DNA of 64,000 nt, taken from positions 1 to 64,000 of IMG/VR virus record IMGVR_UViG_3300020577_008668; one strand, given 5' to 3'. Under the pieces are notes generated by a model. That model searched no databases. It was not told the DNA's origin and saw nothing but the letters and a program-made list of their open reading frames with translations. Shown here in pieces: positions 27,656 through 30,944 of this stretch (the stretch's first letter is position 1; each line of letters begins with the position of its first letter). This DNA comes from a virus (taxonomy: Duplodnaviria; Caudoviricetes). The position numbers and the translations under genes are program-made.

Positions 27656-28330
27656 ATGCCAGCTAAGAAAAATCCAGAGTTTGATATCGCTGATCTAATT
27701 GAAGACAGCTCTTCTCTACAAGAGGCTCCTGTTTACGTGGAGGGGCCATCAGGGTCCAGGTATCAGGTGCTTAACCAGTTTGAGGCTGATCACTACAAGT
27801 CTTTATCTGAAAGATATCAGGAAGATAACGTTCTAGAGAATGTTTCTGATGTCCAGGAACTCGATCGTATTCTCATGATGGAACTGATGATGTACCGCTG
27901 GGGGCTTTGGTTGATCCAAGAGAAAGACTATGATGATAAGAGGGTTAATCCTTCTGAGTTGCAAAAAAGCATCTCTTCTTACTCTAAGGAGATTCGTGAG
28001 ATCAAAAAAGATCTAGGAATGGATAAGAGCACCAGGGATAAGGATCAAGGTGAATCCCTATCGGGTTACATTCAGAACCTTTTGAGAAGGGCTGAGGAAT
28101 TTGGTATTTCTCGTAATGATCAGGCGGTTGAGGCGATTAATACGCTCATGGAGCTGAGGGGGTACATTACCCTTTACCGAAATTCAAATGATGCTGAACG
28201 CAAAGAATTTCACGTCACATTAGAAGAGATCATTCAGTGGTGCGAAAAGAGTTTCGAAAAATTTGATGAGATTGATGCGGCCTTGAGAGAAAATCAAAAA
28301 TACTGGATTCACGACATTTCTAAGGTGTGA
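27656..28330 (+). CDS. Helical protein, candidate terminase small subunit
   Basis: SD GGAGG; position upstream of terL; function inferred from position only. Confidence 0.45.
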   Translation: MPAKKNPEFDIADLIEDSSSLQEAPVYVEGPSGSRYQVLNQFEADHYKSLSERYQEDNVLENVSDVQELDRILMMELMMYRWGLWLIQEKDYDDKRVNPSELQKSISSYSKEIREIKKDLGMDKSTRDKDQGESLSGYIQNLLRRAEEFGISRNDQAVEAINTLMELRGYITLYRNSNDAERKEFHVTLEEIIQWCEKSFEKFDEIDAALRENQKYWIHDISKV

Positions 28331-28334
28331 CGAT

Positions 28335-28865
28335 ATGGCAACACGGAAAAGTTGGGATGATAAATTTGAGGAAATCGCTAAAGAATTTCCCTTGGTTAGA
28401 AGGTTTAATTGGGAAACAGCTATTCTGAATGATTCAGATTTATTTACTACCTTGCTGGCTGATGTTATAAAGTCCGGGCGTAAGTTAAAAAAACCGGGGA
28501 AACGCCCAAGTTTGTCACGTAAGGACTCTGAGGAGAAATTAAGTCAGCTTGCTGCTGAGGACTTTAGTGAGTTAGAGTTCAAAGATGCTTTCATTGCTCT
28601 TTCTTCTAATCGAAGTATCCGGCACACTGCTAGTAAGACTGGGTTAGATAGAAATATTGTTTACGGCTTATTGAATGGAACCCGACTTCCTTCATTCAGG
28701 GAGATGGAGCAAATTGCTTCTTCGTTCGGGAAAGACCCAAGTTTCTTTTTGGAGTATAGGATTGGGTTTGTTCTTTCTAAAATGAATCAGTTTCTTTTTT
28801 CCTCGCCGGAAACAGCGGCATTTTGGTACAAGAACTTTAAGTCTGATGTGATTACGATTTCATAA
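28335..28865 (+). CDS. XRE-type HTH protein
   Basis: SIRHTASKTGLDRNIVYGLLNGTRLPSFREMEQIASSFG. Confidence 0.75.
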   Translation: MATRKSWDDKFEEIAKEFPLVRRFNWETAILNDSDLFTTLLADVIKSGRKLKKPGKRPSLSRKDSEEKLSQLAAEDFSELEFKDAFIALSSNRSIRHTASKTGLDRNIVYGLLNGTRLPSFREMEQIASSFGKDPSFFLEYRIGFVLSKMNQFLFSSPETAAFWYKNFKSDVITIS

Positions 28866-28877
28866 GAGGACGGGTTT

Positions 28878-30944
28878 ATGAGCAAGGTTTTGACTAACTT
28901 AACCGAACAGGAACGGTACTTGGTATCACTGCTCACTGATCGTTCAGGGATAGATCAGTTTGAGTTCATGATTTATGACCCAGCTTTCCGAGAAAATGAC
29001 GGGCTTTTTAGGGCTTGGCCTTTTCAGTATCACTGGTTCCGATGTAAGGACCCTTTGGTCATTAGCCAGGGTAGTCGAAGTGCTGGGAAGAGTCAGTCGG
29101 CTGTGCTGTCGGCTTTAGCTTTCCCGTTCACTTATCCTGGACAAGAGATGGTTATTACAGCCCCAGAGTCTGTTCATTTGCAGGCTTTAACTGATAAGAT
29201 CGAAACAATGTTTGTGAACAACAGGCTTCCTAGGGACATGCTGGTTAGGGGAGCTGCGGGTATTAAGCATAAGCCTTTTTTGTGTAATTTCAAAAATGGG
29301 GCCAGGATCATGGGGCGGATTCCTCAAAGAGATGGTCGTGGAATGAAGGGTTGCCCTAAGGCCGATACTCCTATTCTGACAGATGCTGGAATTAAGAGAG
29401 CTGATGAGGTTCTTGTTGGAGATAGGGTGGTTAATCATCGGTTGGAGTGGGCTGATGTCACTCAGGTGATTCATGATACGAATACATGCTATGAGGTAAC
29501 TGATATTGAAGGAAACTCTATCACTGTTTCTTGGGAGCATCGTTTTTACGGAGCAGCCAAGGAGGCTTCTGGGTTTTCTGAAATGTACTTTGAGGAAGTA
29601 GATTATCTTTTAGAAGATAATTTTTTTTGGGCTATCCCGGTTGGTGAGTATGAGGGCGACCAAGTTCATGAGGAACGGAATGGGTATTTTCTTGTAGAAG
29701 TTGTTTCTGTAAGAGATGTTGGTGTTCAGTCTATTACTAATATTATTGTTAAAGATGGGCATAGTGTTCTTACGGGAAACATCATGTCTCACAATGTCCA
29801 TCCAACAGTTCTTCTACTTGATGAGGGACAGGACTATAGTCAGCAGGGTTTCGAGGAGCTTATCGAAACAGTTCTTCAGGGAGTAGAGGGAGCCCAGTGG
29901 AAGGTGTTTGGGGTAACTCGCGGTGTTCGGGATAAGTTCTATGAGTACACTCATTCTGAGGCTTGGACAGTGTTTCGTCTTCCTGCCATGTTTCGTCCTA
30001 CGTGGAATGATGCGGAACGGGCTTTGAAAGAAAGCCAGTATGGTAAACCAGATTCACCTGGCTACCGCAGAAACGTTCTTGGCTTACACGGGGACCAAAA
30101 TTCGAGCATTTTTGTCCTGTCGCGATTGATGGCCTGTTGTGACACAAGTCACTCCAGCTTTTACAATGAAAATGAATACTGGAATATCGAATTCGATGAT
30201 TCTGACGTTGAGGAAGCTGGTGACATCATTAGTCTAATTGATCCACCAGGCACTCACGCTAAGTATAAGAACTTTTGGATTGGGTCTGACATTGGATGGA
30301 CTTTAGCCCCGACAGTGATTGTTATTTTTGCGGAAATTGCAGAAAAAGGGAAGGAACCCTCACTGAAACTATTGGGTCGGATCACTATGCGTCGAATTAA
30401 GACGATTGATCAGGCAGACGTTTTTATACACCTTATCAATACGTATAGACCTTTGGCTTTTGCTATGGACTCTACCGGGGCGGGGTTTCCTCTTCTAGAA
30501 CTGATCCAGGAAAAGGCTAGAACTCATGATGAGCTATATAGCGTTGTGGAAAGGATTAAGGGCTATAATTTTAGCGAGAAGGTTGTAGCCGAGTTTGATG
30601 ATACAGTGGAAATTGACGAGGATGATCCTGAGGGATACAAGAGGGCTGAGATTAGAAAGCCAGTTCTAGTTTGGGCTACCGATGTGCTTAGGATGCTTGT
30701 TGATGAAAAGAGACTTATCCTTCCGTGGGATAAGGAGCTTATTGGTGAGTTTCAGGGTCAAACTGTTACTTATGCAAAGGATGCGTTAGATCCATATGGG
30801 CGAAAAAGACTCTACTCATTTGGTTACTTCCACTCGTTGGATGCATGTCGAATGGCTGCTTTGGCTTTTAAGCAGAACGCTATCGAACAGTTTATTAAGA
30901 ATCAGGAAGATAGTTGGGAGGCCCCGTCAGCTATCTTCTTGTAA
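28878..30944 (+). CDS. terL: Terminase large subunit with a Hint insertion
   Basis: Walker A SRSAGKS, Walker B LLLDEG, coupling motif FGVT, nuclease IGSDIG, AMDSTGAG, HSLDA. Confidence 0.9.
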   Translation: MSKVLTNLTEQERYLVSLLTDRSGIDQFEFMIYDPAFRENDGLFRAWPFQYHWFRCKDPLVISQGSRSAGKSQSAVLSALAFPFTYPGQEMVITAPESVHLQALTDKIETMFVNNRLPRDMLVRGAAGIKHKPFLCNFKNGARIMGRIPQRDGRGMKGCPKADTPILTDAGIKRADEVLVGDRVVNHRLEWADVTQVIHDTNTCYEVTDIEGNSITVSWEHRFYGAAKEASGFSEMYFEEVDYLLEDNFFWAIPVGEYEGDQVHEERNGYFLVEVVSVRDVGVQSITNIIVKDGHSVLTGNIMSHNVHPTVLLLDEGQDYSQQGFEELIETVLQGVEGAQWKVFGVTRGVRDKFYEYTHSEAWTVFRLPAMFRPTWNDAERALKESQYGKPDSPGYRRNVLGLHGDQNSSIFVLSRLMACCDTSHSSFYNENEYWNIEFDDSDVEEAGDIISLIDPPGTHAKYKNFWIGSDIGWTLAPTVIVIFAEIAEKGKEPSLKLLGRITMRRIKTIDQADVFIHLINTYRPLAFAMDSTGAGFPLLELIQEKARTHDELYSVVERIKGYNFSEKVVAEFDDTVEIDEDDPEGYKRAEIRKPVLVWATDVLRMLVDEKRLILPWDKELIGEFQGQTVTYAKDALDPYGRKRLYSFGYFHSLDACRMAALAFKQNAIEQFIKNQEDSWEAPSAIFL
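29352..29795 (+). mobile_element. Mini-intein / Hint domain (148 aa) with non-nucleophilic +1 Val
   Basis: CPKADTPILTDAG, VGDRV, block B TVSWEHRFY, block F/G ITNIIV..GHSVLTGNIMSHN, then GTC (Val). Confidence 0.85.

What the first reader, a model, noticed from the sequence alone, without database searches (positions are those of the whole stretch)
29352..29798. Terminase mini-intein followed by valine: canonical splicing chemistry looks impossible
Seen: ...RDGRGMKG | CPKADT...IMSHN | VHPTVLLLDEG (codons CAC AAT GTC CAT). The Hint domain has intact C1, block B and block G HN, but +1 is Val. It sits just before Walker B of an essential ATPase. Established: inteins need Cys/Ser/Thr at +1; bacterial intein-like (BIL) Hint domains lack it and cleave, or ligate by other routes. 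Removing the insert gives a natural-looking G-M-K-G-V-H-P. Inference: non-canonical splicing, or autocleavage giving a two-chain terminase, or a tolerated Hint that acts as a regulatory switch on packaging.
Basis: partly seen in the sequence, partly recalled or inferred. Interest (0 to 1): 0.8.

Follow-up and report, generated by a model that had tools for sequence, protein, structure and literature searches.

The report
Terminase intein lacking its splicing nucleophile
The only DNA-packaging motor gene of this phage carries a real, selected self-excising insert (intein) followed by valine instead of the Cys/Ser/Thr that every described intein class needs. It belongs to a mobile lineage of about 45 phage inteins that nearly all lack that residue, so they probably rejoin the protein by a chemistry so far shown only for bacterial intein-like domains.

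Summary
ORF 28878-30944 is a divergent large terminase. Residues 159-306 (nt 29352-29795) form a 148-aa HINT mini-intein with Cys1, block B SxxH, block F His and a C-terminal Ser-His-Asn. Codon 29796-29798 is GTC (Val).

It is not a sequencing error. Two other assemblies carry the same intein with Val, one using the synonymous codon GTT. Against that relative dS exceeds 1, while omega is 0.115 for the intein and 0.02-0.03 for the exteins.

Intein-free homologs read KG|[T/I/M/V/L/Q]HP at exactly this point. In an intein tree, 42 of the 45 members of this intein's clade have I/V/L/M at +1. Inteins at seven other sites in the same terminase family all have C/S/T.

One empty/occupied allele pair is 98.5% identical in DNA. 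It shows a precise GGT^ATC insertion and a downstream co-conversion tract, so these inteins are homing now.

Best reading: a true intein excised without a +1 nucleophile, most likely by Cys1 thioester, +1-independent Asn cyclisation, then attack by the freed alpha-amine, as proposed for type A BIL domains. Ligation itself is inferred, and a two-chain terminase is not excluded.

The parts
28878..30944 (+). Large terminase (TerL) precursor gene, 688 aa including the intein. It is the only TerL in the 79.6-kb virus record.
   Evidence: ORF. Foldseek matches to T4 gp17 3CPE, HK97 6Z6D, D6E and Sf6; weak PHROG terminase hits; 41.5% identity to an annotated TerL; single copy in G000.
28878..29351 (+). 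N-extein (aa 1-158), ending in the conserved loop GRIPQRDGRGMKG.
   Evidence: G146, I148, P149, G153, G155, K157 and G158 are invariant in 47 homologs.
29070..29093 (+). Walker A / P-loop, GSRSAGKS (aa 65-72).
   Evidence: Read directly from the sequence. R67, S68, G70, K71 and S72 are nearly invariant.
29352..29795 (+). 148-aa mini-intein (HINT domain) with no endonuclease domain. It runs from Cys1 to Asn148.
   Evidence: omega 0.115 at dS 1.13; it is nested among full-length LAGLIDADG inteins, so the endonuclease was lost secondarily.
29352..29354 (+). Cys1 (TGC), the N-terminal nucleophile for the N-S acyl shift.
   Evidence: Cys in 43 and Ser in 2 of 45 clade members; invariant in alignment A3.
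29487..29489 (+). Cys46, a clade-specific invariant cysteine of unknown role.
   Evidence: Cys in 44/45 clade A inteins, against 2/25 in the other inteins at this site; absent from the second +1-less lineage (Gln/Met at +1).
29529..29540 (+). Block B, S-W-E-H (Ser60...His63). This is the SxxH form also found in gp41-1.
   Evidence: S60 in 45/45 and H63 in 45/45; alignment to gp41-1.
29739..29741 (+). Block F position 4, Asn130, where most class 1 inteins have Asp.
   Evidence: Asn in 37/45 and Asp in 7/45. PMC4031507 states that F:4 is most commonly Asp.
29760..29762 (+). Block F His137 (F:13).
   Evidence: 44/45; invariant in A3.
29787..29795 (+). Block G, Ser146-His147-Asn148. Asn148 is the residue that cyclises.
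   Evidence: S in 43/45, H in 45/45, N in 45/45.
29796..29798 (+). +1 residue Val307 (GTC), which has no side-chain nucleophile.
   Evidence: GTT (Val) in L001. Val in P0123.
29796..30944 (+). C-extein (aa 307-688 plus the stop codon): the rest of the ATPase domain and the nuclease domain.
29808..29825 (+). Walker B, VLLLDE (aa 311-316).
   Evidence: L312, D315 and E316 are nearly invariant; strand E311-315 in the model.

Best explanation
This is a functional mini-intein in the phage's only large-terminase gene. It belongs to a mobile clade of phage TerL inteins that no longer need a Cys/Ser/Thr at +1.

Proposed route:
1. Cys1 makes the usual N-S acyl shift, helped by block B Ser60/His63, giving a thioester at Gly158.
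2. Asn148 cyclises, helped by His137 and His147, whatever the +1 side chain is. This frees the C-extein with Val307 as its new N-terminus.
3. The alpha-amine of Val307, held close because the two terminase halves already pack together, attacks the thioester. This gives the native Gly158-Val307 peptide bond.

This is the route proposed for type A bacterial intein-like domains, here used by a true homing intein.

Shown: the anatomy, the selection, the family-wide lack of a +1 nucleophile and recent homing.

Inferred: that the exteins are ligated rather than only cleaved, and that aminolysis is the ligation step.
For: 1. HINT fold and intein homology.

2. The residues for step 1 (Cys1, Ser60, His63) and for Asn cyclisation (His137, His147, Asn148) are invariant or nearly so in 45 clade members.

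3. Window versus L001: dS is 1.1-1.4, omega is 0.115 for the intein and 0.02-0.03 for the exteins, and the +1 codon changed synonymously from GTC to GTT. The terminase has therefore stayed functional with this intein in place over a long divergence.

4. It is the only TerL in the record.

5. In clade A, +1 is I 28, V 8, L 5, M 1, T 2, S 1. In the other 25 inteins at the same site it is T/S/C in 23 and M in 2.

6. Internal control: inteins at seven other sites of the same TerL family all have C/S/T at +1. About 90 non-TerL inteins found by the same profile have C/S/T, with three exceptions.

7. Empty and occupied alleles:
- P0043 and P0009 exteins are identical at 547/549 aa.
- At DNA level, 24/1650 nt differ, and 21 of those lie 8-225 nt downstream of a precise GGT^ATC insertion. 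That is a co-conversion footprint.
- Three further with/without pairs share the same +1 residue.

8. Precedents for resolving a HINT thioester with an amine:
- Type A BILs splice without a +1 nucleophile (PMC4031507).
- Tetrahymena BIL2 forms an isopeptide bond to a Lys amine (PMC8616854).

9. The nearest solved relative is gp41-1. Its T/S-H-N motif with SxxH block B gives fast C-terminal cleavage that tolerates most +1 residues. T123S keeps that activity, T123H nearly abolishes it, and removing the F:4 Asp increases it (PMC12245125). Clade A has SxxH, S-H-N and Asn at F:4.
Against: No experiment shows ligation. The sequence data demand only that both junction reactions and the exteins are under selection, and a cleaved two-chain terminase would also satisfy that.

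In the tested type A BILs, cleavage products dominate over spliced product (PMC4031507), and one BIL did not splice until +1 was changed to Cys.

After Asn cyclisation the C-extein is no longer tethered to the intein, so efficient aminolysis needs pre-association of the exteins.

Val and Ile are beta-branched and are poor acyl acceptors in uncatalysed ligation (my own knowledge).

The S-H-N correlation is not strict. A second lineage at the same site has Gln/Met at +1 with SHN, QHN or HHN and with Asp at F:4.
Confidence: 0.55

Rival explanations
1. Double autocleavage without ligation. The intein cuts itself out by thioester hydrolysis at the N-junction and Asn cyclisation at the C-junction. 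The terminase then works as two non-covalently associated chains (aa 1-158 and 307-688).
For: It needs the same conserved residues as splicing. Cleavage dominates in the tested type A BILs (PMC4031507). The cut would fall in a surface loop between a strand and the Walker B strand, where a nicked Rossmann-like fold could hold together.
Against: Homing into naive alleles would have to be tolerated at once by a motor that is one chain in 142 intein-free relatives. No naturally split TerL at this point turned up among about 330 family members, though no dedicated search for short forms was made. The exteins of intein-bearing and intein-free alleles show no compensating differences (547/549 identical).
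Confidence: 0.2
2. Ligation by a different, undescribed chemistry. One option is a relay in which the N-extein acyl group moves from Cys1 to an internal nucleophile, such as the clade-specific Cys46 or Ser146 next to the scissile Asn, before transfer to the freed amine. Another is catalysis through the invariant extein His308.
For: Cys46 is present in 44/45 clade A inteins but in only 2/25 of the other inteins at the site. Ser146 is present in 43/45. Class 3 inteins set a precedent for an internal Cys carrying a branched intermediate (PMC2807308; PMC4031507). His308 is nearly invariant.
Against: The second +1-less lineage (Gln/Met at +1) lacks Cys46 and sometimes has His or Gln at the Ser146 position. 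His308 is equally conserved in intein-free terminases, so it is explained by terminase function. gp41-1, a canonical intein, also has Thr at the Ser146 position. No 3-D distances could be measured.
Confidence: 0.15
3. The Hint domain is not removed. It is either a tolerated or regulatory insertion in the loop before Walker B, or the gene is dead and the Val reflects decay or an assembly error.
For: HINT termini lie close together, so a loop insertion is sterically possible. This copy has no endonuclease and cannot home.
Against: Val is confirmed in three assemblies, with a synonymous codon change in one. Extein omega is 0.02-0.03 and intein omega is 0.115, which rules out a pseudogene. Invariance of Cys1, His63, His137, His147 and Asn148 across 45 diverged members is not expected for a passive insert. 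It is the only TerL in the record.
Confidence: 0.05

Closest known systems
Type A bacterial intein-like (BIL) domains, e.g. the Clostridium thermocellum BIL, PDB 2LWY (Dassa et al. 2004; Aranko et al. 2013; as reviewed in PMC4031507)
   Same: HINT fold, N-terminal Cys, C-terminal His-Asn and no Cys/Ser/Thr at +1. The proposed chemistry is the one adopted here: thioester, Asn cyclisation, then attack by the freed alpha-amine. A profile of this family detects 2LWY at E 7e-6, and Foldseek gives E 5e-6.
   Different: From my own knowledge of Amitai et al. 2003, BILs sit in variable regions of non-essential, often secreted bacterial proteins, have no homing endonuclease and are not found as presence/absence alleles.

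This element sits at one precise point of a conserved motif region in an essential phage gene. Its relatives carry LAGLIDADG endonucleases (PF14528) and show a homing footprint. It is closer in sequence to true inteins (gp41-1, E 5e-12). In tested BILs, cleavage dominates, whereas here selection on an essential gene argues for efficient maturation.
gp41-1 intein (cyanophage-like metagenomic split intein; PDB 6QAZ/6RIZ), class 1
   Same: It is the best sequence and structure match. It shares the SxxH block B and a hydroxyl residue before His-Asn (T-H-N versus S-H-N). Its engineered form performs fast C-terminal cleavage that tolerates most +1 residues, and this depends on that hydroxyl (PMC12245125).
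   Different: gp41-1 splices canonically with Ser at +1 and has Asp at F:4. The present intein has Val at +1 and Asn at F:4, and it is contiguous rather than split.
Canonical inteins at the same TerL site (Ser1 or Cys1 ... H-H-N / H-K-N | Thr/Ser), e.g. P0010, P0075, P0112
   Same: They have the same insertion point, KG|xHP, are homologous over blocks A, B, F and G, and most carry an endonuclease.
   Different: 23 of these 25 have T/S/C at +1, against 37% T/S among empty alleles. They mostly have His, not Ser, before His-Asn, and they lack Cys46.
Class 2 (Mja KlbA) and class 3 (mycobacteriophage Bethlehem DnaB) inteins
   Same: Both are accepted examples of inteins that bypass one canonical nucleophile. 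Class 3 is also thought to be of phage origin (PMC2807308; PMC4031507).
   Different: [quoted passage not shown] Here Cys1 is present and the +1 nucleophile is missing. There is no class 3 WCT signature: F:4 is Asn, not Cys.

Membership tests
Intein (class 1, canonical) | HINT fold | tested here: met
   AF2 pLDDT 91.5. Foldseek matches gp41-1, Ssp DnaB, Prp8 and Mxe GyrA at E 1e-8 to 1e-6. The profile hits solved inteins.
Intein (class 1, canonical) | N-terminal Cys/Ser plus block B (T/S)xxH | tested here: met
   Cys1 and S60-W-E-H63. Conserved in 45/45 clade members (Cys 43, Ser 2).
Intein (class 1, canonical) | C-terminal His-Asn and block F His | tested here: met
   H137, H147 and N148, conserved in 44-45 of 45.
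Intein (class 1, canonical) | Cys, Ser or Thr as first C-extein residue (+1) | tested here: not met
   Val307 (GTC) in the window, GTT in L001 and Val in P0123. 42/45 clade members have I/V/L/M.
Intein (class 1, canonical) | In-frame insertion at a conserved site of a host protein, absent from close homologs, with excision restoring the homolog sequence | tested here: met
   142 intein-free homologs are colinear across KG|xHP. P0043 and P0009 exteins are identical at 547/549 aa.
Intein (class 1, canonical) | Mobility through a homing endonuclease | tested here: inconclusive
   This copy is a 148-aa mini-intein without an endonuclease. Its closest full-length relatives carry LAGLIDADG (PF14528), and one shows a co-conversion tract. 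P0096 (210 aa) looks like an intermediate in the loss.
Intein (class 1, canonical) | Protein splicing (extein ligation) actually occurs | not testable with these tools
   Needs expression and mass spectrometry. Here it is only inferred from purifying selection.
Type A bacterial intein-like (BIL) domain | HINT domain with C-terminal His-Asn and no +1 nucleophile | tested here: met
Type A bacterial intein-like (BIL) domain | Located in variable regions of non-conserved bacterial proteins, with no endonuclease and no empty/occupied alleles | tested here: not met
   It has a fixed position in a conserved motif region of an essential phage TerL, endonuclease-bearing relatives and an empty/occupied allele pair. 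The definition of the BIL context comes from my own knowledge of Amitai et al. 2003.
Class 3 intein | No N-terminal nucleophile, and a Trp-Cys-Thr signature with Cys at F:4 | tested here: not met
   Cys1 is present and F:4 is Asn130.
Class 2 intein | Ala1, with direct attack by Cys+1 | tested here: not met
   Cys1 is present and +1 is Val.
Phage large terminase (TerL) | N-terminal ATPase with Walker A and Walker B, a C-terminal nuclease fold, and packaging-gene context | tested here: met
   GSRSAGKS and VLLLDE motifs. Foldseek matches T4 gp17, HK97, D6E and Sf6 TerL. A 573-aa ORF I read as the portal, plus structural genes, lie downstream (those functions were not tested). No Pfam or NCBIfam model reaches threshold.

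The most novel reading that the evidence does not exclude
Clade A would be a fourth mechanistic class of true inteins: mobile, endonuclease-carrying elements in an essential gene that splice efficiently with any residue at +1. Selection would have tuned the active site (SxxH, Asn at F:4, S-H-N, invariant Cys46) to couple +1-independent Asn cyclisation to direct or relayed transfer of the thioester onto the new alpha-amine. Losing the +1 requirement would let the element invade the roughly 63% of terminase alleles that have I/M/V/L/Q at the site. It would also give protein engineers a natural scaffold for scarless ligation at non-Cys/Ser/Thr junctions.
Probability: 0.45. Interest if true: 0.88.

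Novelty: new variant of a known kind. Interest (0 to 1): 0.76.

Why it matters
Every described intein class (1, 2 and 3) requires Cys, Ser or Thr as the first C-extein residue, and this is part of how inteins are recognised and annotated. Ligation without it has been shown only for type A BIL domains, inefficiently and in non-essential proteins.

This lineage has about 45 diverged members, sits in an essential single-copy gene under strong purifying selection, and has a fresh homing footprint into an Ile allele. It is a natural system in which +1-independent maturation must work well.

Three consequences would follow:
- The +1 requirement is the main limit on traceless intein-mediated ligation and tag removal, so such a scaffold has practical value.
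- It would show how a selfish element widens its target range by dropping a chemical constraint.
- Intein surveys that filter on +1 C/S/T would be undercounting. Other notes from this scan on terminase and ribonucleotide reductase inteins point the same way.

The question is directly testable with a small 148-aa construct.

Tried and rejected
- **Sequencing or assembly error at +1:** rejected. Three assemblies have Val, one with a synonymous codon.

- **Shifted junction:** rejected. Intein-free homologs are colinear, and no residue is shared between the ends of the insert and the flanks.

- **Another nearby nucleophile in the C-extein:** rejected. Thr310 of this copy is not conserved (relatives read IHPIWL...), and His308/Pro309 are equally conserved in intein-free proteins.

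- **Class 2 or class 3 mechanism:** rejected, because Cys1 is present and F:4 is Asn.

- **Pfam and NCBIfam on the whole protein:** no hit. Pfam on the intein gave only sub-threshold Hint hits. A single-sequence PDB search was also weak, and only the family profile gave significant hits.

- **Word-based search for longer proteins holding the intein:** it found only three. The exhaustive profile search was needed.

- **S-H-N or Cys46 as the strict determinant of +1 independence:** weakened. A second lineage has Gln/Met at +1 without Cys46, and with HHN or QHN in some members.

- **F:4 Asn as the discriminator:** rejected. The canonical sister inteins also often have Asn.

- **Literature:** eight searches found no paper describing homing inteins without a +1 nucleophile. 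The library lacks most subscription journals, so this is not proof of absence.
Full report
**1. What is in the sequence**

ORF 28878-30944 (+) encodes 688 aa. The junction reads ...RDGRGMKG | CPKADT ... IMSHN | VHPTVLLLDEG, with CAC AAT GTC CAT at 29790-29801.

The insert is aa 159-306 (nt 29352-29795, 148 aa). The next codon, 29796-29798, is GTC (Val).

The record is a 79.6-kb IMG/VR virus contig, and this is its only terminase. Upstream and downstream genes look like a tailed-phage packaging and structural module. I did not test their functions.

**2. Host protein**

Pfam and NCBIfam do not recognise the protein, and PHROGs gives only weak terminase hits. Other evidence identifies it as a large terminase:
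- An AF2 model built on 47 homologs has mean pLDDT 82.6. Its best Foldseek matches are T4 gp17, HK97, D6E and Sf6 large terminases.
- One GenBank phage annotates a 41.5%-identical protein as TerL.
- Walker A is GSRSAGKS (aa 65-72) and Walker B is VLLLDE (aa 311-316).

The insert lies in the loop after the invariant G-x-G-x-K-G, four residues before the Walker B motif.

**3. The insert is an intein-type HINT domain**

- A single-sequence search is weak. A nine-member family profile hits gp41-1 at E 5e-12, Mxe GyrA at 3e-7, the C. thermocellum BIL (2LWY) at 7e-6, and Mtu RecA, DnaB and DnaX inteins.
- The AF2 model of the insert has pLDDT 91.5 and pTM 0.84.
- Foldseek ranks gp41-1 first (E 1e-8, TM 0.70/0.80), followed by more than 40 inteins, Hedgehog and BIL domains.
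- Invariant in the nine-member alignment are C1, T10, G13, G23, H63 (block B), G67, H137 (block F), S146, H147 and N148.

**4. Not an error, and under selection**

Contig L001 comes from another metagenome and its TerL is 91% identical in protein. It has the same 148-aa intein. Nei-Gojobori estimates give dS of 1.1-1.4 in all three segments. Omega is 0.022 for the N-extein, 0.115 for the intein and 0.025 for the C-extein. The +1 codon is GTT in L001 and GTC in the window.

A third contig fragment (P0123) has the identical intein followed by Val.

The terminase has therefore stayed under strong constraint with this intein inside it, and the intein itself is constrained.

**5. The family picture**

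A search of 5.8 billion proteins gave 270 homologs. IMG/VR gave 80 loci. A profile search of 1.84 billion representatives gave 150 listed hits.

Among 220 unique TerL sequences that could be parsed:
- 142 have no insert here. They read KG-xHP with x = T 47, I 33, M 21, V 14, L 13, Q 8, S 5, A 1.
- 71 carry an insert at exactly this point.

In a tree of the Hint parts, this intein falls in a clade of 45 ("clade A"). In that clade +1 is I 28, V 8, L 5, M 1, T 2, S 1. In the remaining 25 inteins at the site, +1 is T/S/C in 23 and M in 2.

The window's intein is nested inside clade A. Its sister is P0003, followed by P0096 (210 aa, with an endonuclease remnant), and then full-length 343-348-aa inteins whose host proteins carry LAGLIDADG (PF14528) hits. 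It is therefore a mini-intein that lost its endonuclease.

**6. Internal controls**

The same terminase family is an intein hot spot. Inteins at seven other insertion points could be read:
- the P-loop, GSR|C..HN|S
- RPFH|C..HN|C
- Walker B, DE[AS]|C..HN|S
- WR|C..SN|C
- HR[LY]|C..HN|T
- GF|C..GN|T
- LY|C..GN|S

All of them have a canonical +1. The roughly 90 non-terminase inteins recovered by the same profile have C/S/T at +1, with three isolated exceptions. The missing nucleophile is thus specific to this site and lineage. It is not an artefact of how junctions were read.

**7. These inteins are mobile now**

In an extein tree, several intein-bearing proteins sit next to intein-free ones that have the same residue at the site.

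P0043 has no intein, and P0009 has a 347-aa intein with +1 Ile. Their exteins are identical at 547/549 aa.

At DNA level (L090 versus L091, from different samples):
- The insertion is exactly between GGT and ATC.
- The +1 codon is identical in both.
- 24 of 1650 extein nucleotides differ, and 21 of these lie 8-225 nt downstream of the insertion point.

That clustering is the classical co-conversion footprint of endonuclease-driven homing. It implies that an intein followed by Ile recently entered, or left, a working terminase gene.

**8. Mechanism**

Conservation shows that the chemistry at both junctions is selected:
- Cys1 with block B for the acyl shift.
- His137, His147 and Asn148 for succinimide formation.

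The simplest route consistent with this is the one proposed for type A BILs: thioester, then Asn cyclisation, then attack of the freed alpha-amine on the thioester.

A second precedent for an amine resolving a HINT thioester is Tetrahymena BIL2, which forms an isopeptide bond (PMC8616854).

A useful lead comes from gp41-1, the closest solved relative. Gu et al. 2025 (PMC12245125) report the following:
- Its T-H-N end, together with its SxxH block B, gives fast C-terminal cleavage that tolerates most +1 residues.
- T123S keeps the activity and T123H nearly abolishes it.
- Removing the F:4 Asp raises both rate and promiscuity.

Clade A has SxxH (45/45), S-H-N (43/45) and Asn rather than Asp at F:4 (37/45). 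The canonical inteins at the same site mostly have H-H-N. This fits Asn cyclisation that does not wait for a +1 nucleophile.

It is a correlation only, and not a strict one. A second lineage at the same site, in a remoter TerL branch, has Gln or Met at +1 with SHN, QHN or HHN and with Asp at F:4.

Clade A also has an invariant Cys46 (44/45, against 2/25 elsewhere). Its role is unexplained. It is absent from the Gln/Met lineage, so it cannot be a general requirement.

**9. What is not shown**

Ligation itself is not shown. A terminase nicked into two chains would satisfy the same constraints. I rank that option lower for three reasons:
- Homing into naive alleles would have to be tolerated at once.
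- No compensating extein changes are seen.
- No split gene at this point turned up among about 330 family members, although I did not run a dedicated search for short forms.

A retained, unprocessed domain, or a dead gene, is contradicted by the selection data and by the invariant catalytic residues.

**10. Comparison and novelty**

By biology, this is an intein: it sits at a precise conserved site in an essential gene, its relatives carry endonucleases, and empty and occupied alleles exist. By the +1 criterion it behaves like a type A BIL.

It fails one defining feature of each family, so I file it as a new variant of a known kind rather than as a member of either.

Eight literature searches found no description of homing inteins that lack the +1 nucleophile. 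The library is incomplete for subscription journals.

This scan has noted the same theme on other DNA. Note e1-5356550 describes a terminase intein with Gln at +1. I saw Gln at +1 at this same site, but I could not compare sequences with that note. Several other notes describe ribonucleotide reductase inteins with Arg or Gly at +1. I did not test those.

**11. Verdict**

- Confidence that the element is a functional intein processed without a +1 nucleophile is about 0.9.
- Confidence that the exteins are ligated by the aminolysis route is about 0.55.

Noticed in passing
TerL family homologs (P0004-P0264); window ORF 28878-30944 for reference: This terminase family is an intein hot spot. Searches show at least ten apparent insertion points, including the P-loop, Walker B and the nuclease domain. 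Single proteins reach 1,600-1,890 aa and carry three or more inteins (e.g. P0124, P0129, P0135).
   Followed up: partly
P0163, P0178, P0256 (metagenomic TerL relatives; not in the window): These are short TerL-like proteins (487-526 aa) with an intein-like domain at the same site. The domain ends in S-K-G or S-M-G instead of S-H-N, followed by SPWLPD/SPFMPD rather than xHP...DE. They may be degenerate inteins, disrupted genes or another arrangement.
   Followed up: no
P0186, P0197, P0237 (non-terminase proteins): These are isolated inteins in other host proteins with Tyr, Lys or Ala after the terminal His-Asn, where relatives have Cys or Ser. I did not check whether they are decayed copies or further +1-less inteins.
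   Followed up: no
L090:49-1698 versus L091:301-2991: This empty/occupied allele pair has 21 of its 24 nucleotide differences packed into about 220 nt just downstream of the intein insertion point. It is a clean co-conversion tract that could define the homing endonuclease's target side.
   Followed up: partly
window 27656-28330 and 28335-28865 (+): Two ORFs of 224 aa and 176 aa directly upstream of TerL keep the same order and size in L001, L002 and L003. The 176-aa ORF has a weak HTH_3 hit in relatives. They are candidates for the small terminase or a DNA-recognition subunit.
   Followed up: no
window 29352-29795: The intein has lower G+C (0.41) than the flanking exteins (0.45-0.46) and the window as a whole (0.465).
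   Followed up: no
window 29487-29489 (Cys46 of the intein): This cysteine is invariant in 44/45 inteins of the +1-less clade and nearly absent from the other inteins at the same site (2/25). Position 61 in block B is also Cys in 33/45 members, but Trp in this copy. It could be a redox or relay residue.
   Followed up: partly
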